In this document: one piece after another, positions 28,188-60,545 of the stretch
Position numbering within the stretch: the first letter of the stretch is position 1
Layout of the letters: each line of letters starts with the position of its first letter
IMG/VR virus record: IMGVR_UViG_3300012973_000014
Location: 22 to 64,021 of that record
DNA length: 64,000 bases
Strand: one strand, 5' to 3'
Source: a virus
Made by a program: the position numbers and the translations under genes
The notes under the pieces: model-generated
Told to the model about the DNA's origin: nothing
The model's input: only the letters and a program-made list of their open reading frames with translations
Databases searched by the model: none

Positions 28188-28637
28188 TTGCCTATGCAAG
28201 TATTCATTCCTTATGCAAGTCCGTTTGATACGGCAATGGCATTAAAAGGAGATAGACGCTTCTTAAAACAGATTCAAGAAACAAGACAGATTCTCTCTGC
28301 TATCTACGACCCGACAAGAGGATACGCTAATCATCCTGTGACTAAGATGTACAAGAATCATACTCAATGGCTTTATCTGTATCTCATGGTGTTTGAGTTT
28401 GTCAGAGACAACAATCTGATATCAGCCCGGTTCACTTCATTCTGCGCTGACAGATGCAGACCCGAGTGGATGACTGATGAGCTATGTGACCAGCATAAGA
28501 GACGCCTGTATACCAAGAATCCGCAGCGTTACCCACATTGGGCTCATCTTGGTACATCGCTGGAAAATTGGTATGTAGTGAACGGGGAGGTAAAAAAGTA
28601 CATTAATGGCAAAATAATTTTGCAAAATAAAAACTAA
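28188..28637 (+). CDS. hypothetical protein
   Basis: 149 aa. Behind the class-2 leader. Confidence 0.5.
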   Translation: MPMQVFIPYASPFDTAMALKGDRRFLKQIQETRQILSAIYDPTRGYANHPVTKMYKNHTQWLYLYLMVFEFVRDNNLISARFTSFCADRCRPEWMTDELCDQHKRRLYTKNPQRYPHWAHLGTSLENWYVVNGEVKKYINGKIILQNKN

Positions 28638-28736
28638 CCTATTAACTTTGTAAGAAAATTTGAGATATGACACTATTGTTTATTATATGGGGAATCGCGT
28701 ATTTCTGCGAGGAACTGATAAATGGAGGTAAATAGT

Positions 28737-29498
28737 ATGGTTTACGCGTATTATCGTTATTCTACAGGCAAGCAGACTGAGATGCAACAGGAGCATAGAG
28801 TTCGGGAATACTGCCATAACCGAGGCATAACTATCGACGCTGTGGTTATAGATAGAGCCGTAAGTGGAGCCATATCTATAGAAAACAGGAATCTCGCAGC
28901 GCTGATTGGAAAGATGAAGCCGGGGGATACATTGATTGTTTCAGAGGTATCACGTATATCCCGTTCTATTGGGGACTTCTGCGAGTTTATATTGGTTGCC
29001 ATGCCTAAGCTTAAAGCGAGGCTAATCGTCTGCAGTATGGGTCTGGATATAGATTGTGCTAATATGTCCGGTATGACGCAGATGCAGCTGATGATGTTTT
29101 CATGCTTCGCTCAGATAGAGCGAGAGCTTATTACGGACCGTATTCAGGCGGCAATAGACGCTCGCAAGGAAGCCGCTAAGGTTAACGGTGGTTGGACATC
29201 CAAGTCCGGCAATTACTGCACTCATTTGGGACGGGATTCGTTCAACGACCCTTCAGCAGCCGGTAAGAAATCGGCATTCAACAAGAAGAAGAAGTTTATG
29301 AAGGGTATGCGCCCGGTAGCGGAGCATATAAGGTTATTAAAAAGCACTACAGATTTGGATAATCTACGAATAGCTATTGCCCTTAATAATGCCGGATTCA
29401 GAACTGGCAACGGAGGTAAGTTCCATCATTCACATATACCTAAAATACTGAAATATGACGAAGAAGGTATCTATTACGAAGAAGCAGACTTCATGTAA
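28737..29498 (+). CDS. small serine recombinase (resolvase/invertase family)
   Basis: 'VYAYYRYSTGKQ' catalytic Ser motif, 'SEVSRISRS', C-terminal HTH. Start placed at the Met before the motif (ORF track 28722). Confidence 0.75.
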   Translation: MVYAYYRYSTGKQTEMQQEHRVREYCHNRGITIDAVVIDRAVSGAISIENRNLAALIGKMKPGDTLIVSEVSRISRSIGDFCEFILVAMPKLKARLIVCSMGLDIDCANMSGMTQMQLMMFSCFAQIERELITDRIQAAIDARKEAAKVNGGWTSKSGNYCTHLGRDSFNDPSAAGKKSAFNKKKKFMKGMRPVAEHIRLLKSTTDLDNLRIAIALNNAGFRTGNGGKFHHSHIPKILKYDEEGIYYEEADFM

Positions 29499-32388: not shown

Positions 32389-32492
32389 TATTTGCACCGT
32401 AGTATTTTTGCTGATTATGCTGGCCGGTGCAGCGGCTATACTAACCGTAATATTCAGCATAGCAGCGTTTATTTTTAATTTAATTTCAAAAG

Positions 32493-32768
32493 ATGAAGAA
32501 AGCAGATTTGAAAAGTAGAGTAGCTAAGGCTACCGGCGTAGAGCATCACATCGTAGGTGCTATTGTTGACGCAGTTTTTCACGAACTAAAAGAAGGATTT
32601 GTTACCGGCGAGAAAATGGAGTTCCGAGGGTTCGGGACTTTCACCAAACGCACCTCTGGAGCTAAGGTCGGTAGAGTTATTGCCACCGGAGAATCTATCA
32701 ATATCCCTGCCCGTAATACTATTAAGTTCAAGGTGAGCAAGGAGATTTTAAACGAGATGAATAAATAG
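32493..32768 (+). CDS. hup: HU/IHF-family DNA-binding protein
   Basis: 'GFGTFTKRTSGAKVGRVIATGESINIPARNTIKFK'. Classic HU beta-arm and signature. Confidence 0.85.
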   Translation: MKKADLKSRVAKATGVEHHIVGAIVDAVFHELKEGFVTGEKMEFRGFGTFTKRTSGAKVGRVIATGESINIPARNTIKFKVSKEILNEMNK

Positions 32769-32771
32769 TTG

Positions 32772-32805
32772 AAGAGGACTCATTTAGAGTCCTCTTTCTC
32801 TTTGT
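32772..32805 (+). terminator. intrinsic terminator
   Basis: aaGAGGACTCatttaGAGTCCTCtttctctttg. Confidence 0.6.
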
Positions 32806-32871
32806 TTTCACATGCGCAGCCGGGGCATCCACCACAGCAATGTTCGCAACAGCAATCATGATTTTCCATGG

Positions 32872-33282
32872 TCAACATTCGTTTTCAAGCACACAATAAA
32901 TTTTCTGTGTCAAATCTCCAACCAAGTAGGAAGCCTCTTCGGAGAATACATCTATACCGTTAGCCTCAACGATATGTTTTGCTAAGTGGTCTATCTCATG
33001 GGCCGAGGAGTTCATCAGTTCATCAAATGAGCTCGCCTGACCTACAACAAGCACGCTCACTCTCTTTATGTAATTAGAATACGTCAAACCCTCGTTTTTT
33101 CGCCCATTTTTAAGACTTCTCTTTGCGTTGTATAGATTATCCCCTTTACATCCGAAACTCCTTAAATAAGCCAGAATTTCATCCGAATCCGATGGGCGGC
33201 TATAAAAGAATATATACACCGTCCAGTCGTATTCCCTCAAGTCAATCTTTGCTTTTTTCATAATTAAAGCATATCCTCCCAC
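32872..33282 (-). CDS. putative zinc metallopeptidase (HExxH; ImmA/IrrE- or minimal-zincin-like)
   Basis: 'SAHEIDHLAKH' HExxH. 136 aa. Confidence 0.45.
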   Translation of the reverse strand: MGGYALIMKKAKIDLREYDWTVYIFFYSRPSDSDEILAYLRSFGCKGDNLYNAKRSLKNGRKNEGLTYSNYIKRVSVLVVGQASSFDELMNSSAHEIDHLAKHIVEANGIDVFSEEASYLVGDLTQKIYCVLENEC

Positions 33283-33686
33283 ATAATAGGGATGCCTTTT
33301 GCGATACAGTCTGCATAGAAATGAGTAAAAGTCTTAGAGTCATACCCATCCACATCGCAGATATTATCTTTTATATGCAAAGCCGCCTGTTGCTCATCCT
33401 TAATAGAGGACCCGTAATAGTCGGCTTTTATCATATTGTAAAGATAAACCGCATCGTAGCCATTAATATCTTCTATCTCTACACTGTGCTTTTTGAGAAG
33501 TTCATCCACATGGTCTTTACTCGCAGGTTGGATTTTGACCATTTTCTCAGAACCCTCTGCTTTCTTCTTCATATTGGATACTGCCCATTTGCACATCTTA
33601 GGGCTGAAATGCCAGCCATATATGGAAAGGTAATCTTCCATTCCCGAAGGGAACACATCCCTCGCATCAAGTCTTTGCCTACACAT
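33264..33686 (-). CDS. hypothetical protein
   Basis: 140 aa. Overlaps the downstream peptidase-like gene by 19 nt. Confidence 0.45.
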   Translation of the reverse strand: MCRQRLDARDVFPSGMEDYLSIYGWHFSPKMCKWAVSNMKKKAEGSEKMVKIQPASKDHVDELLKKHSVEIEDINGYDAVYLYNMIKADYYGSSIKDEQQAALHIKDNICDVDGYDSKTFTHFYADCIAKGIPIMWEDML

Positions 33687-33728
33687 AACTCTAAATGTTT
33701 TAAGAGAGGGGCGAACCCCTCTCCGGTT

Positions 33729-33947
33729 CTAAATGTATCTTCCACGAGAGTCCCTACGTCTTCTCTCACCCATATAGTCCATATCGTCCCAGTCTTCTTT
33801 CATACCGTAACGATTACCATATCTAGAGCCACCTCTGTGGCCCATCTCTTCCATGGCTTTCTGGTATCCGTGCTCACATCCTTCCTCGTAAGCCTCTTCA
33901 ACCTCGTCTTTTCGGCCATAGCCTTCTCTGATTTCCCACATTCTCAT
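33729..33947 (-). CDS. small R/G/Y/E-rich protein
   Basis: 72 aa. 'GHRGGSRYGNRYG...RRRRDSRGRY'. Confidence 0.35.
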   Translation of the reverse strand: MRMWEIREGYGRKDEVEEAYEEGCEHGYQKAMEEMGHRGGSRYGNRYGMKEDWDDMDYMGERRRRDSRGRYI

Positions 33948-33951
33948 AACA

Positions 33952-34485
33952 TTACTCTTTTTTAGGATTAGAACTACGCTTTTCAGCCCTCAAGTCAGCA
34001 ATCAGACCAGCAAGCTCTGTCATACTCTTGCTGAACACTTGCATCTGGTCTTTCAAGCTGTTTATCTCAGCTTGCTGCTGCTGTTTCTCAGCATACTCAG
34101 GATTCAAGGTCTGCAAGATAGTGTCGCATCCGGCAATCATTTCCTGATGGAACCCTACACTATTGATAAGGTCGATGCTCTTTTGCTTCATGGACATCAC
34201 CTCTGCGTTCATAGCATCCCTACTTGTGGATATCACCTGCATTCCTGCCCCGCCAAAGTCTGCTATGTCTTGGTTAGCCGGAAGCTTTTGATATGTGATA
34301 TTCTGTTCCCCTACCCTGACAACCAAATCCACCACCATCTCCGGAGCCTGTCCGAACTGCTGAGGAACTGGATATTTCGGAGTAGGCATAGAAACGCTTA
34401 CTACGGTCGCTTTCTCAACAAAAGGTTTGTTGTCCTTGTGCAAAATATAAATCTGATTACTTGGTCTTAAATTCTGAAAAGCCAT
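33952..34485 (-). CDS. hypothetical protein with C-terminal coiled coil
   Basis: 177-aa ORF. Q/E-rich heptads at the C-terminus. Confidence 0.5.
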   Translation of the reverse strand: MAFQNLRPSNQIYILHKDNKPFVEKATVVSVSMPTPKYPVPQQFGQAPEMVVDLVVRVGEQNITYQKLPANQDIADFGGAGMQVISTSRDAMNAEVMSMKQKSIDLINSVGFHQEMIAGCDTILQTLNPEYAEKQQQQAEINSLKDQMQVFSKSMTELAGLIADLRAEKRSSNPKKE

Positions 34486-34507
34486 AGTTCTAAATGTTTG
34501 TTAATAA

Positions 34508-34861
34508 TTAAAATGAACTTGTTGCATCAGCCGCCGCTGCTGCCGCAGGTGCTTCATAAGTCCCTACTAATTGCAATCTTCCTGTACGGCTATTGTAATA
34601 AACAAGTACTAAACTTGATGTACCTACCCCTCCTATATCGGCTACGGTAGCCTGCCCTCCTATTGAGTTAAGAAGTTGTACCGAGCCGAAAAGAATAGGC
34701 AGTTCATCTGTAGCAGTCGTCGGGATTGGCTGCTGTAAATCCACGAGCAGCAAACCTGTAAAAGCTGTATTACGGAAAGCCTCAAATGTGTATGTTACAT
34801 TTGTTGCAGTCGCAGTAACACCTATACTCTCAATCCCTATCGTTCTGTTCAAGATAAACAT
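34508..34861 (-). CDS. hypothetical beta-rich protein with C-terminal poly-Ala
   Basis: 117 aa. T/V/G-rich. Confidence 0.45.
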   Translation of the reverse strand: MFILNRTIGIESIGVTATATNVTYTFEAFRNTAFTGLLLVDLQQPIPTTATDELPILFGSVQLLNSIGGQATVADIGGVGTSSLVLVYYNSRTGRLQLVGTYEAPAAAAAADATSSF

Positions 34862-34872
34862 AGTCTCAGAAA

Positions 34873-35811
34873 TTAAAATGCGTTATTAAAGCCATTGCAG
34901 AAGTTTCCGTAAGGGAAACCATAACCGGCTCCGAAGCCATAACCACAGTAAGGAGCATAAGCTACATTAATACTGCGATTTACTGGAACATACTCAGGAG
35001 TCGCAGTGATTACCTCAGTCTTAGGAAGACGGCATTTAATACTCTCAAGCTCAGCCGCAATAGGGTTTGTAGCTGCGGCAATCATATTGCCAAGCTTATA
35101 AGTCTGTTTCTCCTCCTGAAGAGTAGCAATCTCTCTCTGAAGCTCTCTCTTCTCGATAGCAGCCTGACCAGCAAGAATCTGAGCAGTAGAATCCTTAATC
35201 GCATTCTCAAGAGCACAAGTCTGGTCTTTCTGAGCATAAGCTACTGATGAAAAACCTTGGCTCAAAATCTGATTGGTATTACAAAAACCTCTTTCTGTTA
35301 GGTAATTAGACTCAAGAATACCCTTCTCTATTGAACAGCAACAAGAAGCAATCTGGCTTGCTAGAGCGTTATTACCCTGCATCAATGAAGTGATAATCTG
35401 GTTAGTACTCTGACCCATCTGAGTACCAAGGTTACAAATCTGGGTTGATACCTGACCGATAGCGTCTCTTACGCGGTCTACTGAACAGTTAATTGACTGA
35501 GCCAACTGTGAAAGGTCTACACCGTTTCTCTGGATGGCTGACATAAGCATCTCACGCTCTGCATTAGCAGCTGCGTAATTACCATTGCCATTGTTACCAA
35601 AACCGAAGTTACCGTTGCCGAAGATGGCTGCTACTACGATTAGAGCCAAGATATCTTGGAACCCGTTACCGCCCCAAAAACCATTGCCACCACCATTGTT
35701 CATAATACCCATCAAGTAAGCTGGGTCAATACCTTTGCTCTGGAGCAAAGAAGGAAGCATAGCGCTTAGATTGCCGGCTCCCGAGTCAAAAACATAAGTT
35801 TTGTCTGACAT
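34873..35811 (-). CDS. glycine-rich, Cys-cluster protein of unknown function
   Basis: 312 aa. 'GGGNGFWGGNGFQD', hydrophobic 'ILALIVVAAIFGNGNFGFGNNGNGNY', 'SCCCS', C-terminal 'CGYGFGAGYGFPYGNFCNGF'. Confidence 0.5.
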   Translation of the reverse strand: MSDKTYVFDSGAGNLSAMLPSLLQSKGIDPAYLMGIMNNGGGNGFWGGNGFQDILALIVVAAIFGNGNFGFGNNGNGNYAAANAEREMLMSAIQRNGVDLSQLAQSINCSVDRVRDAIGQVSTQICNLGTQMGQSTNQIITSLMQGNNALASQIASCCCSIEKGILESNYLTERGFCNTNQILSQGFSSVAYAQKDQTCALENAIKDSTAQILAGQAAIEKRELQREIATLQEEKQTYKLGNMIAAATNPIAAELESIKCRLPKTEVITATPEYVPVNRSINVAYAPYCGYGFGAGYGFPYGNFCNGFNNAF

Positions 35812-36034
35812 AATGTTTTTTCGTTATAACAAAATTGAGTGCGCTTTATGGGAGGCACTGTTGTCCCTTGTTGCAACAATACGAAGGTATAACAAGGCAA
35901 ATCGGGAAAAGTTCATTCTATCAAGAAAAAATTATTGTACTGAATATGTGAGTGTTACCTGATAGGTGTGAAGATAATTTTGCAAAATAGGAGTTAAATA
36001 CCTTACTTTGTAGAAATTTTAAAAGAAAGCGGAT

Positions 36035-36277
36035 ATGAAAAAATTGTTTATTCTTATGCTCGGAGTGGTTCTGCTCGCGAGTTGTTGCGCCAGCGACCCA
36101 AGTAATTACAAGAAGTATGAAGTCAAATTACCGGATGGCTCTGTGGAGTATGTCAGAGCAGCGTATTGTCATGAACACGGTAGCGGAGTAGTAGAGTTTG
36201 GACCGGGACGCATCGTTATCTACAAAAATTTTGTTTCAATCAGAAAAGTGGAGATAAGAGCTCATGAGAGACGATAA
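36035..36277 (+). CDS. small lipoprotein
   Basis: Signal peptide plus lipobox 'VLLASCCAS'. 80 aa. Confidence 0.55.
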   Translation: MKKLFILMLGVVLLASCCASDPSNYKKYEVKLPDGSVEYVRAAYCHEHGSGVVEFGPGRIVIYKNFVSIRKVEIRAHERR

Positions 36278-36506
36278 CAACTGGATGTTTGTTGCAGTAG
36301 CTTGTCTTGGGAGTTTTTTAATAGCCGTGGCAATGAGCTACCTTATAACACAAAGCGAACTGCAGCCTTATATGAAGCTCAAGGAGGAGCTAGAAGTTAT
36401 TAAAGACAGTCTGGCTATCCAACACAACCATTTTCACATCACTATAGAGAAAGACACAATAATAACACAGAAAGTATGTATAGACTTATCATCACTCTCG
36501 CAATAG
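36264..36506 (+). CDS. small membrane protein
   Basis: TM helix 'MFVAVACLGSFLIAVAMSYLI'. Confidence 0.4.
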   Translation: MRDDNNWMFVAVACLGSFLIAVAMSYLITQSELQPYMKLKEELEVIKDSLAIQHNHFHITIEKDTIITQKVCIDLSSLSQ

Positions 36507-36637
36507 CATGCCTTATCGTTTACTACATAGTATGCTTCGCTGAGATTTTCGGGCTCATGAAGATTACCAAAAAGGGTAGTATCAAGCCATCAAAACTGTT
36601 AATCCCATTTTATTACTTATTTAAAAACTAAAACATT

Positions 36638-37816
36638 ATGAACAAAAAACAATTAGGCTCCATCATTCTTGGAGCGGCTGTAATCCTTATGCTTTGCTTT
36701 GTAGGCAAGTTCGGAGAGGATGTGTCAAATGAGAAAATCGTTGTTAACCAGTTTCCATTCTCAGGTAAGATGGCGTACTGGACCACTCCGGGTTGGAAAT
36801 GGCAAGGCTGGGGTTCCACCACCGAGTACTACAAGACTCAGCAGTATTGGTTCGGAGGTAAGGATGCGGACGGAAATGAGCATGGTACTCCAATTAGAGT
36901 TATCTTCAATGACGCGTCGGTAGGATATATCTATGGCTCCTTGCGAATCAAGCTCCCTACAAGCGAGGATAAGTTGGCCAAGATTCATACAGACTACAAC
37001 GGAATGGACCGCTTGATGAATGACCTTGTATCACAAACTGTAGTAAAAGTAGTATACGCTTCCGGTCCGCTAATGTCAGCGTTTGAGTCTTACGCAGAAA
37101 AGAAAAACGACCTTATCGCTTATGTTGATGACCAGCTGACCAACGGTGTATACAAGACCTCAGTAAAAGAGATTGTAACCGTAGATTCATTTACCGGAGA
37201 GGAGAAGAAAATCAAAGTGGCGTCGCTATTCGCTGACGAGAACGCTCCGGGCGGATACAAACGTTCAGAGACCTCACCATTCGCGTATTACGGCATTGAG
37301 ATTGGTCAGGTAGCTATCTCAGAGATTCAGTATGACGAGAAGGTAACCAAGCAGATTGAGACTCAGCAACAGGCTAACATGTCTATCCAGACCAAGAAAT
37401 CAGAGGCATTGGCAGCACAGCAGGATGCTATCAAAGCCGAGGCTGAAGGTAAAGCTGCTGCAGCAAAAGCCAAGTGGGAGCAGGAGAGAATCAAGGCTAC
37501 GGAGGTAACTAAAGCGGAGCAGGAGTTTGAGGTTGCAAGACTAGCTGCTCTTAAAGCGAAGGAGGAGGCTAAGAGAATTGAAGCTGAAGGTGCTGCTAAG
37601 GCTGCCGCTAACAGAGCATTGGTAAGTGCAGGTCTTACTCCACTTGAGAAAGCGACTATTGAGAAAGAGACCAAGATTGGCGTAGCTCAAGCTCTTTCAC
37701 AAATCAAACTCCCTACTATCGTAAGCGCAGGAGGTCAGGGCGGAAACGGCAACACAGCCATGGACGCTATGGGCCTTAAAATGATGAAATCACTGGTAGA
37801 TGAGATGAGTAAATAA
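36638..37816 (+). CDS. SPFH/band-7 (flotillin/HflK-like) membrane protein
   Basis: N-terminal TM, central SPFH-like domain, C-terminal A/K/E-rich coiled coil 'AEAEGKAAAAKAKWEQERIKA...'. Confidence 0.6.
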   Translation: MNKKQLGSIILGAAVILMLCFVGKFGEDVSNEKIVVNQFPFSGKMAYWTTPGWKWQGWGSTTEYYKTQQYWFGGKDADGNEHGTPIRVIFNDASVGYIYGSLRIKLPTSEDKLAKIHTDYNGMDRLMNDLVSQTVVKVVYASGPLMSAFESYAEKKNDLIAYVDDQLTNGVYKTSVKEIVTVDSFTGEEKKIKVASLFADENAPGGYKRSETSPFAYYGIEIGQVAISEIQYDEKVTKQIETQQQANMSIQTKKSEALAAQQDAIKAEAEGKAAAAKAKWEQERIKATEVTKAEQEFEVARLAALKAKEEAKRIEAEGAAKAAANRALVSAGLTPLEKATIEKETKIGVAQALSQIKLPTIVSAGGQGGNGNTAMDAMGLKMMKSLVDEMSK

Positions 37817-37820
37817 AAAG

Positions 37821-37847
37821 AGGGACCATTAAGGTCCCTTTATTTTT
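37821..37847. terminator. bidirectional terminator hairpin
   Basis: AGGGACCattaAGGTCCCTttattttt, with an A-run on the 5' side. Confidence 0.55.
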
Positions 37848-38133
37848 GCAATATCCTCTTGAAATCTCGAAAGCGAAAGAACGCCTTGGCAGTTACTTTC
37901 TTCTCTTTAGGAAGCTTGCGCGACACATCATTCATCAGGACTCTCTTATCCTTATTGAAATACTTCGCCGCAGTATCATAATCAACCAAAGGATTCATAA
38001 GTGTCATCAGGAAATTACTGGCTGTTTCAGCCGTATTGGAATCTATATTGTCGAAAGCACCTGCCTCTGACATTTGGTACAGCTCTTTAATCAGGCCGCG
38101 GGACCTATCGTTTTGTTCTGACATATCTAACAA
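37840..38133 (-). CDS. hypothetical protein
   Basis: 97-aa ORF. Confidence 0.4.
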   Translation of the reverse strand: MLDMSEQNDRSRGLIKELYQMSEAGAFDNIDSNTAETASNFLMTLMNPLVDYDTAAKYFNKDKRVLMNDVSRKLPKEKKVTAKAFFRFRDFKRILQK

Positions 38134-38506
38134 AGTCTTTAATTTGTATTCCGAAATGGATTAAGCATCCTATTATACCGGCTAAGATAAGTAAAATTGC
38201 TAATATGTTGGTAATATTGTAGAATGCAATGGAAGGGAAGGAGTCGTAGAAATAGCAAGAAAGTGAGGCGTAAAGCACGCTGAGTATGACTAAACGGTAA
38301 TAGATACAGAAGTGTTCGTATAAAGAGATGATGAAGCAGAGGGCGAGAGTGAAATAACTGAAAAGACAAAAGTTGGCCATCCATTTTAAGTCAATCTCCA
38401 GTTCAAGTAACCAGTTTAAGAAATGAATGACTTGATAAACACCAAGCAAAATAGGGATAACTGCTATCAAGGGTAAGTATATAAATGCTAACACAGACCG
38501 TTTCAT
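38105..38506 (-). CDS. polytopic membrane protein (4 predicted TM; holin candidate)
   Basis: 133 aa. Hydrophobic segments. Near the lysis genes. Confidence 0.4.
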   Translation of the reverse strand: MKRSVLAFIYLPLIAVIPILLGVYQVIHFLNWLLELEIDLKWMANFCLFSYFTLALCFIISLYEHFCIYYRLVILSVLYASLSCYFYDSFPSIAFYNITNILAILLILAGIIGCLIHFGIQIKDFVRYVRTKR

Positions 38507-38742
38507 TTAACTCTTACTTTTATAACTTGCTTCAAACTATCGTTTTCTATTTGTAGAGAATCATTTTGCTCACTAAGAGAATCATTTTGCTCACTAAGAG
38601 AATCAACTTGTTTCTCTAATTCTTTCACTTTTCTATCCATCTCCTCATTCCTATTCCCCACATACACCTTTCCCTTGATTTTCTTCTTAAGTTCTTCAAG
38701 TGAAGGTAACTTTTTCAGCTTTTTCCTTTGCTTTTTCGCCAT
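38503..38742 (-). CDS. small coiled-coil protein with an in-frame 21-bp tandem repeat
   Basis: 'DSLSEQNDSLSEQNDSL'. The DNA 'aagagaatcattttgctcact' is duplicated at 38559-38600. Confidence 0.4.
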   Translation of the reverse strand: MAKKQRKKLKKLPSLEELKKKIKGKVYVGNRNEEMDRKVKELEKQVDSLSEQNDSLSEQNDSLQIENDSLKQVIKVRVK

Positions 38743-39055
38743 AACTAACTATATTTGCACCGAACAATGCAGGTTAAATAGTTTTTTAAGTTATCCCCGC
38801 CGTTTTCGCAACGGTGGGGTTTTTATTTATAAAGAACGGCCCTCAAGTGACAAGCCTGAGAGCCTTATTTAAGTAGTCTATATGGCTATTTCCATTTTGG
38901 AAACACCCACTAAATCATCTCCCATTGAGGTATTCCATCCTTCTTGCCAATACATCTCAACTTCTCGCCTTTTTCTGTCTCAATGATGTCGCCAATCTCA
39001 GTAACAGCATTAAGTTCTTCCTGTGTCATTTCAATCTTTTCCATACTATTATTAA

Positions 39056-39535
39056 CTAAAATTGTATAAAATTATAACTTATTCCTATTCCTATATACGG
39101 GTAAAATCCTTCACCACTTATAGCGTATCCTCCTTGTATGCCTATTCCCCATTTTTTCGGCCTCTCCCGCACATATTCGGTTTGGGTAATATATTTAGTC
39201 GTAATTCGTGGATAGATTCTTATTTCTTCCAAGTAAGCGTTAATACCGCTAATCTTTGCGTAGTAGGTGCTATCCTTGTACTCCTTAACCTCTTGGAACA
39301 ACATCTGACCGGCTAAATAAATAGTGTCTTTCAATATAACTGTATCTCTTACCTCCACCCTATACGGCACAGGCTTGGGAAAATATTGCGTATCAATCTG
39401 CACATCAATCACTGTATCCCTCACTATTTTCATCTCTGGCCCCTTTACTGGGCTCTGGCACGATTTCATTAGCATCATACCGAGCAAGGCCCCAACAAAG
39501 AGTAGCAGCAAATATATACCCCCAGTCCTTACCAT
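39056..39535 (-). CDS. putative lipoprotein / o-spanin-like protein
   Basis: N-terminal signal 'LLLLFVGALLGMMLMKSC'. Sits in the lysis cassette. Confidence 0.4.
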   Translation of the reverse strand: MVRTGGIYLLLLFVGALLGMMLMKSCQSPVKGPEMKIVRDTVIDVQIDTQYFPKPVPYRVEVRDTVILKDTIYLAGQMLFQEVKEYKDSTYYAKISGINAYLEEIRIYPRITTKYITQTEYVRERPKKWGIGIQGGYAISGEGFYPYIGIGISYNFIQF

Positions 39536-39927
39536 TCTCTGATTGCATTCTTAAGAGCCTCCTCAGCTTTATTTACCGCATCCTTAAGACGCTCTATTTC
39601 CCGCAGCTGCTCTTCGCTTTTAACCGGTGCTCCTCTAAGCCAATTGTTATAATTGCAGTGTACTACACCTAACATACTGCATCGTAAAGCGTAATCATAA
39701 TACTTCCAATATTCACCGCGTGGAGCATCCTTCTCGATATCTACCATCATATCTGCAAGAGAGACGTAGTAGTCACAGATATTAGCTACCCCGCCAATAT
39801 CTATCCATTCAGCATCTCTTACATCAAACTCATGTTTCTTACAAAACTCAGCGAGATATGCATTACAAGCATTCTCGTAATTACTTCTTAATGACTGAAC
39901 CATTGAAATCCTTTTTAAATAATTCAA
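39529..39927 (-). CDS. hypothetical protein
   Basis: 132-aa ORF. Confidence 0.4.
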   Translation of the reverse strand: MNYLKRISMVQSLRSNYENACNAYLAEFCKKHEFDVRDAEWIDIGGVANICDYYVSLADMMVDIEKDAPRGEYWKYYDYALRCSMLGVVHCNYNNWLRGAPVKSEEQLREIERLKDAVNKAEEALKNAIREW

Positions 39928-40336
39928 ATTCTGCTGCTCGGCGCCTCTCGAGGCCTTTAAGTTTCTTACCTCTGGATTTAACCCACATCATCCACGCCTT
40001 GCGATACTCGTTAATATCACTGATTTTATAGTTAATAACCTTACGGATTGTAGATGTACAGAAATTACCTGAGCCTATATTGTATACCAGAGACACAAGA
40101 GCATCAAACTGACTTTGTCTAAGAGGTGTGCTGACAAGATGTGATACAGCCTCCTCAGCTTCTCGTAAATCTTCCTTGAGGAGGTCTTCTGCCTCCGACT
40201 CCAATATGGAATCTCCAGCCCTAACGCCACGAGTATGACCATAGCCTATAGTCCATACACCTCCGGGGCACAGATAAGCATTCTTTCGGAAGCCTTCAAA
40301 CTCCTTAATTAAATCAATTCCTTCCTTACTTGTTTT
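39881..40336 (-). CDS. GH24 lysozyme (endolysin)
   Basis: 'EGIDLIKEFEGFRKNAYLCPGGVWTIGYGHT' T4-lysozyme signature. Start placed at 'MKTSKEG' (ORF track extends to 40414). Confidence 0.85.
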   Translation of the reverse strand, partial: KTSKEGIDLIKEFEGFRKNAYLCPGGVWTIGYGHTRGVRAGDSILESEAEDLLKEDLREAEEAVSHLVSTPLRQSQFDALVSLVYNIGSGNFCTSTIRKVINYKISDINEYRKAWMMWVKSRGKKLKGLERRRAAEFELFKKDFNGSVIKK

Positions 40337-40757
40337 CATCCTTTCGTAAACAATGTGGTTTATAAGTTCCTTTTTCTGGCTTTCTATTAGGACAAGGGTC
40401 CACAAAGCATACATTCACACTGGTAAACCCAAGAGCTTCCTCAAGCGCCTCCATCCTGTTTTCCAATTTCAATAAACGCCTACTGAGTTCATAGTTCTCG
40501 GACTCCTTCTCTAAGTTCTCCTTTCTAGAATCAGCAAGACGCTCCAAAGCCTGAGAAGCTATCTCCTCCGATGCCCCGATACGCCTATGGTCCAAATCAA
40601 AATCCTTCTCCTGTGTCGATATATGCTCCTGAACAGTATGCTCTTTCTCCTGTCTAACTCCCTCTCTATCCATGCGCGTTTTATAACGCTCCTGACGGAC
40701 CTTGTCCCAGAAGGTAAAAAGCGCAAGTACTACAACTAGTATCTGTTCCCAATCCAT
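40326..40757 (-). CDS. membrane/coiled-coil protein (holin or i-spanin candidate)
   Basis: N-terminal TM 'ILVVVLALFTFW', then a charged coiled coil. Overlaps the lysozyme start. Confidence 0.4.
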   Translation of the reverse strand: MDWEQILVVVLALFTFWDKVRQERYKTRMDREGVRQEKEHTVQEHISTQEKDFDLDHRRIGASEEIASQALERLADSRKENLEKESENYELSRRLLKLENRMEALEEALGFTSVNVCFVDPCPNRKPEKGTYKPHCLRKDENK

Positions 40758-42858: not shown

Positions 42859-45800
42859 TTATGCCCTCCTATATTGTGCTAATTCTTGTTCTAATTGATT
42901 AACTTTTTCTCTTAATAGTTGCACCTCAGTCTTAACTCCTTTAACCTCTCTCGCAACGGAAATGCCTATACCAACTGCCAAAGCACCATAATCAAGATGG
43001 TAGAAGTCTTTATTGGTTGTATTAACAGCATCCTTGAACTGAGTATCCAACCAATACTGAGCAGATGTACCTAAGTGTTGTTCCTTATCATCTCTGTCAG
43101 TCCATTTGAATGTAAACAACGGAGCATTGACTATTGTTTCAAGGTCTATCTGCTTGTATGAGGTAATATCCTTGTAGCGGATATCCGAACCAAATGCACC
43201 ACCACCTGTGGCCACAAGATTGCCGTTCCCATCTATATAAGCAATATCTGTATTAACGCCATTGGCTGACCGGTAGAATGTTAGTCCTTTTGTTGTTTGG
43301 GCATAAAGACCATAATCCCAATAGTCATCACTTTCTGTTCTTCTTAAAAATTTGAGTTTTCTTGAAATACTTGATGTTCCTGTAGTATCGTTTAGTATAA
43401 TATCTCCATTTGTATGTATATTAGAACTTACTGTAAGGGTATGCGACATTGTTACATCTCCAGACTGAGCAATCACAACACCTATTCCAGCATTTGCACT
43501 ACCACTATTAGGCCTTAGATATATACCTTCAGCAGCATATATACCGAGACCTCCAGCACTTGATAAGCCTATTCTCGCTAAATGACTGCTTCCGAATAAA
43601 ATTCCAACATCATTAAAAGCACTGCTACTCGCATTGTTTAGTACAAGTCCGTTACTTACATTAAGAGACTTAATAGTTCCTGTCCCATAATAATCAATCT
43701 TAAAAGCTGTAGTCCACCCTCCGTAATTATGCTGCAAATACCAATCTCCTCCGCTAACAAAGGTTTTCCAATCAAAAGTGGTAGTATAATCATCAATAGC
43801 TCCTCGTTGAAAAATCAAAGCTGGAGAATCTCCACTCTCTGAATAAAGAGTTAAATCACCTGTGGCGTAATTTACTAATGCTTTAGGAGCATACCATAAA
43901 CTATTACTCTTATTAGTTAGCACAATGGGCCTATTGATATTATCTGTACCAGCTTGACAAAGAACTGTATTTACCGTAGGAATATCAGCAGCCACCAATG
44001 CTCTAAATGTAGCAGCCCCATTGCCACCATTTGGGGCTGCAAGGACAGTATTCGCTGTTCTTGAAACACTCGCATCATACCAAGAAATAGTTTCCCAGAT
44101 AGGTGCTCCTGTACCAGAACTTCTTAAAAATTGACCGCTACTTCCTTTTGTTATAGGTGCATAAATATCAAATGTTGTTGGAGTGTTGGTTGTACCAGCT
44201 ATATTCCACGATGTGCCATTAACAGTGGCGGTTCTTGCATATACCCCCAAAGCCTCCTTTGTAAGATTTCCGCTATCGTATATCTTATATTGCTTTCCTG
44301 CTGAGAGGTTGTAGTGATATAAATTATCAGCATTTGTTCTTATGACAGTTTTATGAGCAGAAGAACCGACAGCCACAACAGCTTCACCAGATACGCCTGT
44401 CCAAGTATTTGAAGCACTTAAAGGAGCAAGAATACCATTGCCAGCATTATCATATATGCCAATATTACCGCTTGTAATATTTAGATTTCCTGTTATTGTA
44501 CCTCCTGTAAGCTGTAAATACCTATTATCTACAGTGGTTGAATAATTCCCAGTATGTAATACTTCCCAAGTTCTAGGAATACTAGACGCACTATTACAAT
44601 ACCATAACTTGCCATCATTACCTAACATTAACGCTTTATCTGATTGTATGTTTGTAATAAACACGCCAAAAGCTGCAGCAGAGTTATGCCCTATTAGGGA
44701 CGTATTTACTCCTTTAGTCCTAAATGAAAGGGTAGTGCCTATTGTTCCGTCGGTATCTAAAAATAAAGCCTCACGACTAGTACCATCTTTTACAGTACCA
44801 CCAGACAATTTTAGATATCTATTATCAGTAGTAGTTGAATAGTTACCTTCATGGATAATAGCATTAGCATTAAAAGATAGCCAGTCTTTATATATAACAA
44901 CGCCATTCGTGCTTCTTTCTCCTAAAGTAACATTACCTCTTAAATAAATATTACCAACAGAATACACTCCTATCCCTCCACTAGAATCTGTACCTATTCT
45001 CGCTTGTTCTACGCTATTTAAGGTTCTAATAAAAGACAATGCTGTCTTATCATAAGCAGCATCTGTTCCCGATGAAAGAGTTAGAGGACCTGTAAGAGTG
45101 CCACCACTCAACGGCAAATACCCTGCTAATTTACTATCAAGAGTAACACCATTTTGATAAATGGTAGTTGCATTGAGAGTGCCGTTGACGTCTAACTTAT
45201 AACCATTATCATCAGTAGTGCCTATAAGGACATTGCCATCTTGTGTAATTTGCATTAAATCAGATGCACTTGTTACCCCTCCTCTAAATCTCAAACTACC
45301 TGAATTTGACGCAGAAATACCCCACATCCCTGCATCATACCCATATGAATTTACAGTGGCTAACCATATACTTGCCACATTTGAAACACTAACTTGGTTA
45401 ATTCTTATGCCTTGAGTGTATGAATTTACATTATCTTCTGTTATATGTAAACAACCATTAACTGCAGCACTACCATCAAAACTCTGACCCCAAATGGTTC
45501 TTGCAGTTTGTAGTTTGGTTGCACTACCAGCATTGTATGAGCCTATGTTGCCAGAGTGTATGAGAGTGTTAGTATTATATACAGGAGTACCATCATCTTT
45601 TATGCTCAAATATGATGAAGAAGCAAAGCTATATAGATATGTTCCAATGCTACTATCCCATCCCATCTCAACTTTGTTTGCACTCTTACACTCTATGCGC
45701 ATTGCAACTGCATATGTAGTTGCATTTGAGTTAATTACTAAAGGAGTAATAGCACTGTTATTACTAATCGTTCCCCCACTCAAAGGCAAATACTTCCCAC

Positions 45801-48800
45801 TCAAATCTGGGATATGGCTACTATGGATTGTCTGAGTGCCACTCGCACCCAAGATATTCCATAGCTGTGTTTCATCAATACCTCCACCGCTCGGCACATC
45901 TCCACCGCCACCAGAGCCTTTACCGAATGCACCGCCACCATCAACTATAAGGTTCAATGTCGTATGAACCGCTTTATTCTCCTCGTCATAAGACCACAGT
46001 TTTCGCAATTCATTGACATACTCCAGAATACTACCAAGTGTTGCATCTACATCTCCACTAATCTTTATGGCGCCGCCCAGTGTAATCACACCATCCTTAT
46101 CCCAACTTATGTCTCCACCGGCAACGCTACCAGCTCCATCCTTATCCCAAGTGATATTACCCCCGGCAAGGTATCCGGAGCCATCAAACCTGAATAGAGA
46201 CTGAGCATATTTTGCAAGCGTATTGTCAGCTTCAATATCAGCCATAGGACCACCGTACCATGCAGCTATGCCACCACCCTTCTTGGTTGCATCGTATAAT
46301 CCATTGGTTCCACTCATGACGTTGAATACACCATTTTCGGTATAACCAAGCATCAAGAGTGAAGATTGTATCAGACCGCCCTCTGTAATCGTGCTTTCTC
46401 CTAAAGCTCTGCGTAGGTAGTCATAACCAGCAATCAAATCACTTGCATCCTCAAAAGCTTCTTTCGCTTTATCTTCTGCATATTTTTTTGCTTCCTTAAG
46501 ATTCTTCTCAGCCTGTTCTATACGAGCCTTTTCCTCTTCTGTTACAATTCCGTCCGCGTATGCTCTTGTTTTCTCATCAGCTAGTGCAATTGCGGCATCT
46601 GCAGCTTTCTGAGCAGCATCAATAGCATCTTGCTCCGCTCTGGTTATCTGCTTGTCAGCTTCTGCCTTCGAATAAACATCATCTATATTAGCTTTAGCTT
46701 TTTCAAGTTCACTAATTGTATCCTGTATGGCAATTTTCGCGTCATCTGTATATTTTTCACTTGCAGCCTTAGTATCAGAAATACTCTTATCTAAAGCCGT
46801 CTTGGTTGTAAGTATACTCTCCTCCAATTCAGCTTTAACGGCGTCACTATACGCATGAGAATCATCAGCCAAAGCCCAATCACTAGCAGCATAGCTACCA
46901 TTCTCGCCTTTAGCTTTCACGCATCGTTTCAACGGACTATTTTCTCCTCCGGCCCAAAGGTCTCCCAAGTCATAGGGAGGATAAGGCGTATCAATGAATA
47001 CTCTACGTTTGCCGTCAGCCGTATCCAGAGCCTTCTGGGCGAGTTCTAGAGCTTTAACTACTTCTGAATCCTCTATTACAGCCCAATAATAACCATCAGC
47101 CAAGGTATACTGAAACCTGAAAGCCTTACCATCATTAGTATAAAACAAGTCTCCAAGATGAGAATCCTTATCAGTATCCGTTACCCAGTCTGAAGCGGGA
47201 TAATTGTTCAATGTAGGAACCTCCTCGCCAAACCAAGTATCAATAGCTCCATCCATCTCGTTACGGATATTCTCAAACTCCTTAGTAACCTGCTCTACAA
47301 ACTCCTCATAACCCTCCGGTGTAGCCTCATTGATAGCCTGTTCCAAATCTCGTCCGTCACTCAGTTTAGTCCCAACTTCCAAGCGACCTTTTACTTGAAG
47401 AACACCGTTCTCATACTTAATGTACTGAGTCTGCTCTCTATCTCCTATATAACCAGCGCCATACACCTGAAGCCAAGTCTTACCACCAACACGACCTATA
47501 TTTACACTATCTTTGTTAGAAAGTGTAAAATCAGTTATATCATCATACCAAGTGACCAGACCGCCGCCATCATGTGTCTCATCAATCATCAGAGCTGCTT
47601 GTCTTGACTTGTCAGCACTGTTACCCAACTGCGCGATATTATCACCTACAACAGGGTCAAACGAACCCTGCATACGGTCGGTTTTGCTTATATCAATATA
47701 ATCTGCCCCAATTGCAGTAACACGAGCCCAATACTGACGTATACCGGCATCGGTGAACCTTTGAGAGAATGCACCATCATTTACCGCAAAATAATTACGG
47801 ACAGTACCGTTCTTAGTATCAAAGTAACACCTCCAGCTTGTCCCGGCATCTTCCACTCTACTTACGACCATACCCGCTGCAGAGAAAACTTGCTTGCCGG
47901 CGCTGTAAGAAACTTGATTGATAACAACTTCATTAAACCTTGCTCCTATACGACCGACAAGAACATCAGCCTCAATAACTCTGTTTCCATCATCGTCGGT
48001 ATACACGCCAAAACCTTGACCTTGGATATCTCCGGCACGGAACCCTTTATCGGCGATTCCTTCACCTAACTTTATATTCTTTTTAAACTCCGTAGGAGAG
48101 TAAGACACATCAGCAATACCATCTTTGCGTACAAATGTACTACTCAAAGAACGCACAGCTTCCTGTACTGCGCTTCTATTGCTATATACCCTTTGAGTCA
48201 GCACATTTACTTGACCTTCCAAAACCTCCACCGGATTACCGCTGGCAACAACAAGGTCGGAGAGTGTCAAATTCCACTCTGGATTGAGAGAATTGGCGTT
48301 ATAACGCTTAGTTAATGATTGAATATATAGTGAGATATACGAATCCCCAATAAGAGCAACATTTCGAACCCTTATCTTAGCTCCTGCTTTAATCTTGTCA
48401 ACCTCTCCGAATGAGCTACAGAATATCTTACTCGGAGTAATTGTAAATGATGGGAACTCCTCATCCTTCATCGCCAGCTGCTCTTCCAAGTAAGCATTGA
48501 GACGAGCCTCCGCATCATACACATACGGGTCATAAGGCATAGAGATATTGATAAAGAAGAAGTGGTCTCCGGGCTTAGCGTTCTGTTGAGTATTAGGAAG
48601 ATAGGTGTTAGACGCCTCCAATTCAGCCTCAGACTTCTGAAGCGTTAGCCTCCAGCCTCCTTCGATAGGTTTAATTGCAGTAGTAATGACTTGGTATAAG
48701 TTATCCGAATCAGAACTGAAACCTACAATTCTGAACTCATAATCTTCGCCGGCAAGTAATCCATCAGAGAACATTACCGTCATATCCTCACTGACCGCAC

Positions 48801-59435: not shown

Positions 59436-60545
59436 TTACGATTCAACAGCCTGTGTATCCAAAGACACAATCTTCCTTGGGTCTTTGAATGAAGGGAATG
59501 TCCAAGACTCCATGTTGGTTACAACCTCAATAGGGTCTGAACCGAATATCTCAATAGCACCAATCAAACCACCCTCAAATGTAGTTTTTACAGTCGCAGG
59601 GTTCTGGTCCTTCAAGTAGTCTGAAGGTGAGTTGTGCATATTAAACAACTTAGAAGTAGGGATAAGAGAAACCTTATTCTCATTGAATTTAGCAGAATCC
59701 AATGTAGGAACGCCGTCAATCTCAATCCTGCTCTTCTCGTCAATAGCAACCATTGGAGGAAGACCCAACGCTCTAAGGCCAGCAAGAATCTCGTTATCAG
59801 TCAAGATAGCAAGAGTACTGTTCATCAAAGGCATACGAGCCTTTATAGCCTCAATAACACCAGCGTCAGCAAGAATCTTATCGTATAGAGATTTTGCAAC
59901 AACAAATACTCTGTCTGATGACATATTAACATCGTCATCATCAGCACGTTTGCTCATTTTACGAAGGTCACCTATGATGTCATAACCACCATCTGCTGCA
60001 AACCACTTAGCTTTGGAAGCTTTAAGCTTATTCTTAGCAGGAGTACGAAGGTCAATGGTATAAGCCAATTTGCCCTGATTGTACAGTTTAATGGTCTGGT
60101 CTGACAAACCTTGGAAAATCCAATCATTCCATGTAGCATGGAAACCACCAATAATCATATTGGCACGGTTAATGTATTTCTTAACCATCTCGGCAGCCAT
60201 ATCTACATTAACGAGGTTCATCTCCTCAATAGCATTCAAGTCAGACTGGTCAACTTTGAAACCATGACCAATTTTATGGATAGAGTCGCTGTAGCTCTGT
60301 CCACCCTCTACTGAGCGCAAAGGTTTCTTACCCATAGAGCCAAGCACTGAAGCTTTAACAACGATACCGGTCTCCTCAACGATAGTAGAGAACTTCTTAC
60401 TACGTGAAGCAGGAAGAACCTCTGTGAAAGCTCTCCAAAGAGAGTTATTATACTTACTGTTTACAGTATCAAGCATGTACTGCAACTCGCCCTGATTACC
60501 GGGAACACCCACGAGGGCCTGATAAACTGATAGATGTCTTTCCAT
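59436..60545 (-). CDS. major capsid protein
   Basis: 369 aa. Position after scaffold and decoration genes. Composition typical of HK97-fold MCPs. Confidence 0.6.
   Translation of the reverse strand: MERHLSVYQALVGVPGNQGELQYMLDTVNSKYNNSLWRAFTEVLPASRSKKFSTIVEETGIVVKASVLGSMGKKPLRSVEGGQSYSDSIHKIGHGFKVDQSDLNAIEEMNLVNVDMAAEMVKKYINRANMIIGGFHATWNDWIFQGLSDQTIKLYNQGKLAYTIDLRTPAKNKLKASKAKWFAADGGYDIIGDLRKMSKRADDDDVNMSSDRVFVVAKSLYDKILADAGVIEAIKARMPLMNSTLAILTDNEILAGLRALGLPPMVAIDEKSRIEIDGVPTLDSAKFNENKVSLIPTSKLFNMHNSPSDYLKDQNPATVKTTFEGGLIGAIEIFGSDPIEVVTNMESWTFPSFKDPRKIVSLDTQAVES

What the first reader, a model, noticed from the sequence alone, without database searches (positions are those of the whole stretch)
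32872..35811. Opposite-strand island encoding unusual Gly/Cys-rich, beta-rich and coiled-coil proteins plus an HExxH peptidase-like protein: function unknown
Seven minus-strand genes are embedded between + strand genes (HU upstream, lipoprotein and SPFH downstream). The 312-aa protein has a Gly/Asn/Phe-rich hydrophobic segment (FGNGNFGFGNNGNGNY), a 'SCCCS' cluster and a G/Y/F-rich C-terminus. The 117-aa protein is beta-rich with a poly-Ala tail. The 177-aa protein has a C-terminal Q/E coiled coil. A 72-aa protein is R/G/Y-rich. The 136-aa protein carries 'HEIDH' (HExxH). None resemble standard virion or lysis proteins by inspection. The block could be a membrane-acting or abortive-infection-like cassette, a virion-associated toxin or injection module, or a novel accessory system. 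A serine recombinase about 3.3 kb upstream raises the possibility that this block is invertible or acquired as a unit.
Basis: inference. Interest (0 to 1): 0.7.

Follow-up and report, generated by a model that had tools for sequence, protein, structure and literature searches.

The report
Conserved six-gene Bacteroidales phage cassette
The genes are real and form a six-gene unit of unknown function, shared in the same order by thousands of gut Bacteroidales phages. It is not an invertible or foreign island but the end of the phage's late gene region, usually next to the lysis genes.

Summary
The "opposite-strand island" reading is wrong. A 93%-identical relative lacks the + strand lipoprotein/SPFH genes, so window 35973-37795 is a 1.8-kb insertion. 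Without it, the block continues the minus-strand tail and lysis genes.

The block is a fixed cassette: A (312 aa, one hydrophobic segment, long helical rod, CCC cluster), B (117 aa), C (177 aa, SH3/Tudor-like barrel plus helices), D (72 aa, disordered acidic/RG-rich), E (DUF7841) and F (129 aa, HExxH zincin). The order A-B-C-D-E-F recurs in about 120 loci. These include crAss-like phages, siphoviruses, a ~150-kb lineage and Bacteroidales prophages. Protein A alone has 4482 database relatives.

In 60 of 77 loci, verified lysis genes lie just upstream on the same strand. No flanking inverted repeats or orientation variants were found. There were no defence-system hits, and no significant match to any family of known function.

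Best guess (about 0.3): a late, membrane-anchored, host-envelope module linked to lysis. Virion-associated and superinfection-exclusion or anti-defence roles remain open.

The parts
34873..35811 (-). Gene A, 312 aa. It has a conserved N-terminal ~50 aa (KTYVF...LPxLQxKGIDPxYL) and a Gly-rich flank. A single hydrophobic segment spans 54-72, followed by a ~180-residue helical rod carrying an invariant CCC (157-159) and other conserved Cys. The C-terminal tail is G/Y/F/N/C-rich.
   Evidence: ORF. PHROG 16490, unknown function, 3e-35. 4482 relatives. Conservation in A1/A3. Kyte-Doolittle 19-residue maximum 1.83 at 54-72. AF2 predicts helices 51-64 and 79-259, but pLDDT is only 46.
34508..34861 (-). 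Gene B, 117 aa. A small protein with conserved IPTGTTxTLPV and G.Y..Y motifs and an Ala/Pro/Thr-rich tail. Length varies from 104 to 180 aa among relatives.
   Evidence: ORF. PHROG 31654, unknown function, 3e-8. HMM-detected directly after A in 79 of 84 loci. Alignments. No Pfam or PDB match.
33952..34485 (-). Gene C, 177 aa. A six-stranded SH3/Tudor/KOW-like beta-barrel (11-86), then helices 89-108, 110-127 and 129-172.
33729..33947 (-). Gene D, 72 aa. An N-terminal helix, then an acidic and G/Y/R-rich low-complexity region, then a basic C-terminal motif (RRRRDSRGRYI). A protein of this type occupies the slot between C and E in nearly all loci.
   Evidence: ORF. PHROG 34053, unknown function. 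Positional family of 42 distinct sequences. Found fused to the E domain in crAss-like cr4_1 gp15.
33264..33686 (-). Gene E, 140 aa, a DUF7841 domain protein.
   Evidence: Pfam PF25223, 7.4e-23, above its cut-off. PHROG 38431. 1865 relatives. 845 representatives at 50% identity.
32872..33261 (-). Gene F, 129 aa from the ATG (136 aa if read from the GTG at 33282). A small zincin-type protein with HEIDH plus a Glu 19 residues downstream and a Tyr. Most relatives end in a Cys cluster (LCECDCCK).
   Evidence: Alignment A2: H95, E96, H99, E115 and Y119 are nearly invariant. Start site from relatives. Only weak SprT-like hits, 4 of 28 members, E 0.1. No PDB sequence match.
32780..32878 (-). Candidate mini-gene G, 32 aa (MLTMENHDCCCEHCCGGCPGCACENKEKEDSK). 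Its start overlaps F's stop (ATGTTGA).
   Evidence: ORF. Retained in two 97%-identical relatives, which is too close to be informative. Absent after F in 84 other loci. It may stand in for the Cys tail that F lacks here (inference).
32771..32797 (.). Hairpin with T-runs between the cassette and the convergent HU gene. Likely a bidirectional terminator closing the cassette.
   Evidence: Terminator scan and inverted repeat I1; sequence.
35812..35972 (-). 161-nt non-coding leader upstream of A, conserved in the close relative. It presumably holds the cassette's promoter, but no consensus Bacteroides promoter was found.
   Evidence: Sequence. blastn block window 35972..32405 = L088 5840..9436. No TTTG-N17-23-TAnnTTTG match here.
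37811..37839 (-). Intrinsic-terminator-like hairpin (AGGGACC...GGTCCCT plus a T-run) after the 97-aa ORF that ends the lysis gene run. In this lineage it separates the lysis genes from the cassette.
35973..37795 (+). Not part of the cassette. A 1.8-kb + strand insertion carrying a lipoprotein, two small membrane ORFs and an SPFH/Band_7 protein. It splits the cassette from the lysis genes and creates the island appearance.
   Evidence: Absent from relative L088. Band_7 by Pfam. Promoter-like repeat D1 at 35971-36012.

Best explanation
The block is one copy of a widely shared late-region operon of phages that infect Bacteroidales. It encodes six proteins that probably work together at the host cytoplasmic membrane, late in infection.

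**Shown**
- The order A-B-C-D-E-F is fixed and tightly packed.
- The cassette travels with host clade rather than with virion type.
- It usually lies directly after the holin, endolysin and DUF6808 genes, on the same strand.
- Only A has a membrane-type segment.
- F keeps an intact zincin motif.
- D and E occur fused in some phages.

**Inferred**
- A anchors in the inner membrane through residues 54-72. It presents a ~180-residue helical rod with a Cys cluster and an aromatic/Gly-rich end.
- C, with its small beta-barrel and long helices, together with B, docks on A.
- The D/E pair is recruited through D's basic RG-rich tail.
- F cleaves one of the partners to switch the assembly on.

**Proposed output**
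An action on the host envelope that accompanies lysis: control of lysis timing, or completion of envelope disruption.
For: **Synteny and tight spacing**
- The cassette order holds in 84 viral loci, 34 genome loci, several ENA contigs and GenBank phages.
- The median gap between cassette genes is 16 nt.

**Host-clade distribution across unrelated phage types**
- It occurs in Crassvirales, in Bacteroides phage C3_41T2LP and in a ~150-kb lineage.
- It also occurs in prophages of Alistipes putredinis DSM 17216 and a Muribaculaceae genome.

**Lysis linkage**
- 60 of 77 loci have lysis genes within 7 kb upstream, all on the cassette's strand, at a median distance of 720 bp. The families are Phage_holin_4_1, Amidase_2, Amidase_3, GH108, Peptidase_M15_3 and DUF6808; one representative of each gene cluster was verified by Pfam.
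- The same adjacency is seen in three crAss-like genomes and in the window's close relative.

**Protein features**
- A is the only protein with a hydrophobic segment, and it is predicted to be mostly long helix.
- C's fold is modelled with confidence.
- The F motif is conserved.
- An E-D fusion exists.
Against: - No component is homologous to a characterised lysis protein.
- These phages already carry holin-like, endolysin and DUF6808 or lipoprotein-plus-TM genes, so a core lysis role is not required.
- B to F have no signal peptides. A's topology is undecided: flanking charges are nearly equal.
- Several lineages place the cassette away from lysis genes. It lies between tail-fibre-like genes in the abundant ~150-kb lineage, after a tape-measure gene, and among replication genes in C3_41T2LP.
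- Gene adjacency may only reflect a common insertion hot spot for accessory genes.
- The 80 viral loci kept are the best-scoring ones and are not phylogenetically independent.
- The A model is too poor to support any structural claim.
Confidence: 0.3

Rival explanations
1. The cassette encodes virion-associated proteins. A would be a coiled-coil fibre or an ejected membrane-inserting protein. B and C would be small particle or assembly proteins. D would be a basic/acidic internal protein, and F a packaged or maturation peptidase.
For: - The cassette always lies in late regions, co-oriented with structural genes.
- In the abundant ~150-kb lineage it sits between a Laminin_G_3 protein and a Peptidase_S74 tail-fibre-like protein.
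- In csAssE-Sib and cr4_1 it is next to annotated structural proteins.
- Depositors labelled A 'viral fiber' or 'spike'.
- A is mostly long helix with Gly-rich ends.
Against: - The same cassette occurs in crAss-like phages, siphovirus-like phages and larger phages, whose particles differ.
- C matches no solved virion protein.
- PHROGs place all members in 'unknown function'.
- A hydrophobic segment and a zincin are unusual for decoration or fibre modules.
- The depositors' names probably reflect coiled-coil similarity only; that is my inference.
Confidence: 0.2
2. The cassette is an accessory system used against competitors or host immunity. It would act in superinfection exclusion at the membrane, or in counter-defence and host takeover, and would sit in the usual accessory-gene hot spot near the tail-fibre, lysis and integrase genes.
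For: - In this lineage the cassette is bounded by terminator-like hairpins.
- In temperate relatives it lies between the lysis genes and the integrase, where lysogenic-conversion and exclusion genes of other temperate phages are often found (general phage knowledge).
- A small HTH gene of the Bac_DnaA_C type (Pfam hit recorded for one relative) or the HTH_17 type lies within three genes upstream of A in 56 of 77 loci.
- Its distribution follows the host clade.
Against: - No PADLOC or NCBIfam defence or anti-defence hit.
- It is also present in crAss-like phages, which are generally regarded as virulent (my knowledge), inside late gene runs.
- In most loci the upstream gap is short (median 74 nt) and has no terminator.
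- Six conserved genes are many for known exclusion systems.
Confidence: 0.2
3. The block would be an invertible or recently acquired island, flipped by the serine recombinase 3.4 kb away, and would encode an abortive-infection or toxin cassette.
For: - A resolvase-family gene exists at 28722-29498.
- The block is on the opposite strand to its immediate neighbours.
Against: - No inverted repeats bracket the block.
- Orientation relative to the late genes is fixed in all relatives.
- The strand contrast comes from a 1.8-kb insertion next to the block.
- G+C equals the genome background.
- No defence-family hits.
Confidence: 0.02

Closest known systems
Phage spanins (lambda Rz/Rz1 two-component type; T1 gp11 unimolecular type)
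   Same: Protein A has a single membrane segment, a long helical region with conserved cysteines, and a gene position next to holin and endolysin genes. A helical rod of about 180 residues would be long enough to cross a periplasm.
   Different: - A's hydrophobic segment starts at residue 54, not at the N-terminus.
- There is no partner lipoprotein gene in or beside the cassette.
- There is no sequence similarity.
- Five soluble partners are co-conserved.
- The same phages carry separate DUF6808 or lipoprotein-plus-TM genes that fit a spanin role better.
T4 holin T with antiholins RI and RIII (lysis-timing control)
   Same: One bitopic membrane protein has a short N-terminal part and a large C-terminal domain, and it works with small soluble partners encoded by the phage.
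   Different: No homology. T4's partner genes are scattered rather than forming an operon. No peptidase or disordered RG-rich protein is involved in T4. The comparison rests on recalled knowledge and was not tested here.
Small zincin peptidases (SprT-like/WLM; the 'PolyVal metallopeptidase' label used for the F-position gene of phage C3_41T2LP)
   Same: F has HExxH plus a downstream Glu in a domain of about 130 aa, and it occurs in a phage.
   Different: Pfam gives only marginal SprT-like hits (E 0.1 in 4 of 28 members) and no MPTase-PolyVal hit. F is a stand-alone protein with a Cys-rich tail, not a domain of a giant polyvalent protein.
Morons (autonomous accessory transcription units of temperate phages)
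   Same: In this lineage the cassette is bounded by terminator-like hairpins and lies at the end of the late region.
   Different: It is present in every relative, has background G+C, has six genes, and is also found in phages generally regarded as virulent. The neighbouring lipoprotein/SPFH insertion fits the moron definition far better.

Membership tests
Two-component spanin (i-spanin, Rz-like) | N-terminal transmembrane domain with type II topology | tested here: inconclusive
   One hydrophobic segment lies at 54-72 (KD19 1.83). It is preceded by 53 residues, and flanking K+R counts are similar (0.9 vs 0.6), so topology is undecided.
Two-component spanin (i-spanin, Rz-like) | Periplasmic coiled-coil domain | tested here: inconclusive
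   Helices 79-259 are predicted, but model confidence is low (pLDDT 46). The compartment is unknown.
Two-component spanin (i-spanin, Rz-like) | Cognate outer-membrane lipoprotein gene embedded in, overlapping or adjacent to it | tested here: not met
   B to F have no signal or lipobox-type N-termini and no hydrophobic segment. The lipoprotein-like genes lie upstream, separated from A by other genes.
Invertible DNA segment (Hin/Gin/shufflon type) | Inverted repeats at both boundaries | tested here: not met
   No inverted-repeat pair brackets 32.8 and 35.9 kb.
Invertible DNA segment (Hin/Gin/shufflon type) | Both orientations seen among relatives | tested here: not met
   The cassette is on the same strand as the upstream lysis genes in 60 of 60 informative loci and in the close relative. 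Raw reads could not be examined.
Known anti-phage defence or abortive-infection systems | Match to a PADLOC model | tested here: not met
   Only a coiled-coil-type hit of A to ZorA (E 5e-4, 17 bits). Nothing for B to G.
MPTase-PolyVal / zincin metallopeptidases | HExxH with a third ligand downstream | tested here: met
   H95, E96, H99, E115 and Y119 are nearly invariant in 28 sequences.
MPTase-PolyVal / zincin metallopeptidases | Significant match to the family profile | tested here: not met
   No MPTase-PolyVal hit. SprT-like at E 0.1 in 4 of 28 members and DUF6782 at E 0.15 in one. No PDB sequence hit.
DUF7841 (Pfam PF25223) | Score above Pfam's gathering threshold | tested here: met
   E scores 81.4 bits against a cut-off of 25.2. 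Relatives carry the precomputed hit.
Moron (autonomous accessory unit) | Present or absent polymorphism among close relatives, with deviating composition | tested here: not met
   The cassette is present in all relatives with background G+C. By contrast, window 35973-37795 is absent from L088.

The most novel reading that the evidence does not exclude
The cassette is a previously unrecognised multi-protein system specific to phages of gut Bacteroidales, crAss-like phages included. It would be a membrane-anchored assembly built from a helical Cys-cluster protein, an SH3/Tudor-like adaptor, an RG-rich disordered protein paired with DUF7841, and a dedicated zincin. It would carry out a late host-directed step, such as a new way of timing or completing lysis or of excluding rival phages, with no counterpart among characterised phage systems.
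Probability: 0.45. Interest if true: 0.75.

Novelty: categorically new. Interest (0 to 1): 0.55.

Why it matters
Phages of Bacteroidales, crAss-like phages among them, are among the most abundant viruses of the human gut, and most of their genes have no known role.

A six-gene unit kept in one order across unrelated phage types, and present in thousands of variants, is likely to matter for phage fitness in these hosts. It is also a tractable target, because it occurs in a cultured phage (C3_41T2LP on Bacteroides uniformis) and in a prophage of a type strain (Alistipes putredinis DSM 17216).

If it acts in lysis or phage-phage exclusion, it would fill a gap: outer-membrane disruption and lysis control in Bacteroidales phages remain little characterised, as far as I know.

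The analysis also corrects the annotation of this region. The cassette is native, and the lipoprotein/SPFH pair is the inserted element.

Tried and rejected
**Searches that gave no significant match to a family of known function**
- Family searches of all cassette proteins in Pfam, PHROGs, NCBIfam and PADLOC gave only unknown-function families or coiled-coil noise.
- PF28217, listed for some A relatives, is a weak FAM81B coiled-coil hit.
- PDB sequence searches with single sequences and profiles of A, B, C, E and F found nothing significant.
- The E-15 TAL-effector hits to A arise from a 29-residue stretch scored against every TAL repeat, with no single stretch passing. I rejected them as artefacts.

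**Structure**
- The AF2 model of A was too poor to search.
- The afdb50 library was unavailable.

**Other checks**
- Scanning 28 F-family members in Pfam gave no MPTase-PolyVal hit, so membership in that family was not supported.
- Mini-ORF G is not conserved in distant loci.
- No Bacteroides-type promoter consensus and no repeated motif were found upstream of A.
- The idea that the 97-aa ORF at 37840-38133 is an HTH_17 relative was rejected.
- I tried using TGA recoding in the ~150-kb lineage as a marker of late expression. Recoding is pervasive across that locus, so it does not discriminate.
- Literature searches found no description of the cassette, of DUF7841, or of MPTase-PolyVal in this context.
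- A profile search with E found only chimeric or truncated predicted proteins, with no fusion to a known domain.
Full report
**1. What is there**

The window is a siphovirus-like phage of a Bacteroidota host.
- Minus-strand late genes: major head protein 59436-60545, tape measure 51491-56377 and a 2534-aa tail protein 42859-50463. They are followed by Phage_lysozyme 39881-40414 and a DUF6808 protein 39056-39535.
- Replication genes: a helicase at 2827-4314 (+) and a primase at 9362-10870 (-).
- A run of + strand genes spans about 12.8-32.8 kb. It includes a resolvase at 28722-29498 and ends in an HU gene at 32493-32768.

The flagged block holds six tightly spaced minus-strand genes:

| Gene | Coordinates | Length |
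|---|---|---|
| A | 34873-35811 | 312 aa |
| B | 34508-34861 | 117 aa |
| C | 33952-34485 | 177 aa |
| D | 33729-33947 | 72 aa |
| E | 33264-33686 | 140 aa |
| F | 32872-33282 | 136 aa as listed |

- F more likely starts at the ATG at 33261, giving 129 aa.
- A 32-aa Cys-rich ORF (32780-32878) overlaps F's stop.
- A hairpin with T-runs at 32771-32797 lies between the block and the convergent HU gene.

**2. It is not an island**

A contig whose protein A is 92% identical (L088, 63.8 kb) has this order: lysozyme, DUF6808, three small genes, then A to F, all on one strand, then HU on the other. It has no lipoprotein or SPFH genes.
- By blastn, window 35972..32405 equals L088 5840..9436 at 93% identity. 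Window 38848..37796 equals L088 4805..5844.
- So window 35973-37795 is a 1.8-kb insertion. It carries the + strand lipoprotein, two small membrane ORFs and the Band_7/SPFH gene.
- The block itself is the far end of the minus-strand late region.
- No inverted repeats bracket it, and its G+C (0.42-0.44) equals the background.
- The resolvase is 3.4 kb away, beyond about a dozen ORFs.
- In this lineage a terminator-like hairpin (37811-37839, minus strand) follows the last gene of the lysis run. Together with the hairpin at 32771-32797, this means A to F probably form their own transcription unit.
- No consensus Bacteroides promoter was found in the 161-nt leader.

**3. A conserved, widespread cassette**

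- Database relatives: A has 4482 at E <= 1e-5, C has 973 and E has 1865.
- A scan of viral contigs gave at least 573 loci.
- In the 84 loci analysed, HMMs built from the window proteins recovered A, B, C, E and F in the same order and on the same strand in essentially every untruncated locus. A D-type protein always lay between C and E.
- The median gap between cassette genes is 16 nt.
- The same order holds in 34 loci from bacterial genome assemblies, mostly Bacteroidales. These include Alistipes putredinis DSM 17216 and a 1.68-Mb Muribaculaceae scaffold, so they are prophages.

The cassette occurs in several unrelated phage types:
- crAss-like phages of several families (cr116_1, cr273_1, cr4_1);
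- the cultured Bacteroides phage C3_41T2LP;
- csAssE-Sib;
- a very abundant lineage of 145-172 kb contigs.

Some loci have endonuclease-like ORFs inserted on the opposite strand between cassette genes.

**4. The proteins**

- **A** is the only protein with a membrane-type segment (54-72). AF2 predicts helices 79-259 and disordered ends, but confidence is low (pLDDT 46). The N-terminal 50 residues, the CCC triplet and several other Cys are invariant or nearly so.
- **D** is a low-complexity protein: an N-terminal helix, acidic runs, G/Y/R repeats and a conserved basic end (RGTGRY/RDSRGRY).
- **E** is DUF7841. In cr4_1 and related contigs, an E domain is fused to a D-like tail and sits upstream of A and B. 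This links D and E functionally.
- **F** keeps HExxH, a Glu 19 residues on, and a Tyr. It usually ends in LCECDCCK. Pfam gives only marginal SprT-like hits.
- **B** has no detectable relatives outside the family.
- Nothing matches PADLOC or NCBIfam.

**5. Context**

- I clustered the flanking genes by BLASTP and checked one representative of each lysis-type cluster with Pfam. By this cluster assignment, 60 of 77 loci with at least 4 kb upstream have lysis genes within 7 kb. The families are Phage_holin_4_1, Amidase_2, Amidase_3, GH108 with PG_binding_3, Peptidase_M15_3 and DUF6808.
- All of these lie on the cassette's strand, and the nearest ends a median 720 bp before A.
- A small HTH gene usually sits just before A.
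- In temperate relatives, an integrase-like gene (recognised by inspection of its sequence) follows a few genes downstream on the other strand.

Exceptions exist:
- in the ~150-kb lineage the cassette lies between tail-fibre-like genes;
- in one lineage it follows a tape-measure gene;
- in C3_41T2LP it lies among recombination genes.

**6. Interpretation**

The distribution follows the host clade, not the virion type. This argues for a host-directed function rather than a particle component. The position and strand argue for late expression. The one membrane protein and the recurrent lysis neighbourhood point to the envelope.

I therefore favour a late, membrane-anchored module that accompanies lysis, with confidence of about 0.3. 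All mechanistic steps beyond the anatomy are inference. Virion association (0.2) and exclusion or counter-defence (0.2) are not excluded. The invertible-island and abortive-infection idea is contradicted.

**7. Novelty**

The member families exist in databases only as unknown-function groups (PHROGs 16490, 31654, 28898, 34053 and 38431, and DUF7841). Depositors' names such as 'spike glycoprotein' or 'viral fiber' appear to be coiled-coil artefacts. The literature searches found no description of the cassette. It does not fit any characterised kind of phage system tested here.

Noticed in passing
window 35973-37795: A 1.8-kb + strand insertion carries a lipoprotein (36035-36277), two small membrane ORFs (36264-36631) and an SPFH/Band_7 protein (36638-37816). 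It is absent from a 93%-identical relative. It is preceded by a promoter-like element (35971-36012) that resembles the one before the resolvase gene (28611-28652). It looks like a classic moron.
   Followed up: partly
window 32780-32878 (-): A 32-aa ORF with 8 Cys (MLTMENHDCCCEHCCGGCPGCACENKEKEDSK) overlaps F's stop codon. F here lacks the Cys-rich tail (LCECDCCK) that most homologues have. The mini-ORF may therefore be that tail split off as a separate peptide.
   Followed up: partly
L029, L048, L074 (between E and F); L064-L066 (between A and B); L070: Opposite-strand ORFs of 384, 218 and 289 aa are inserted between cassette genes. The 218-aa one carries an HNH-type motif by inspection. They appear to be free-standing homing endonucleases that use the cassette as a target.
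   Followed up: no
L126 and L127 (contigs of 144 and 155 kb): This very abundant lineage reads TGA as tryptophan throughout the locus. For example, YG*HFSKKMCE*AVS aligns to YGWHFSKKMCEWAVS. Standard-code gene calls there are therefore broken.
   Followed up: partly
L091 5093-5716 (cr4_1 gp15); also L118-L120 and L123: In some crAss-like phages the DUF7841 domain is fused to a D-like acidic/RG-rich tail and moved upstream of A. The GenBank name 'RNA polymerase sigma factor/ubiquitin-like protein' for this gene is doubtful.
   Followed up: partly
P0442, P0505, P0458, P0480, P0489: These predicted proteins join the N-terminal part of A or C in frame to the C-terminal half of E. They could be natural deletion derivatives of the cassette or assembly chimeras.
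   Followed up: no
many loci, 1-3 genes upstream of A (e.g. L072 5981-6400; window 39056-39535): Two recurrent small envelope proteins sit in the lysis run. One has a lipoprotein signal plus a C-terminal membrane helix, an architecture like a unimolecular spanin. The other is DUF6808. Both are candidate outer-membrane disruption proteins of Bacteroidales phages.
   Followed up: no
L001 8757-8957 and 10041-10861 (cr116_1): Two separate features, the first only 66 aa long, are annotated 'major capsid protein' about 1 kb apart. This suggests a split or interrupted capsid gene.
   Followed up: no
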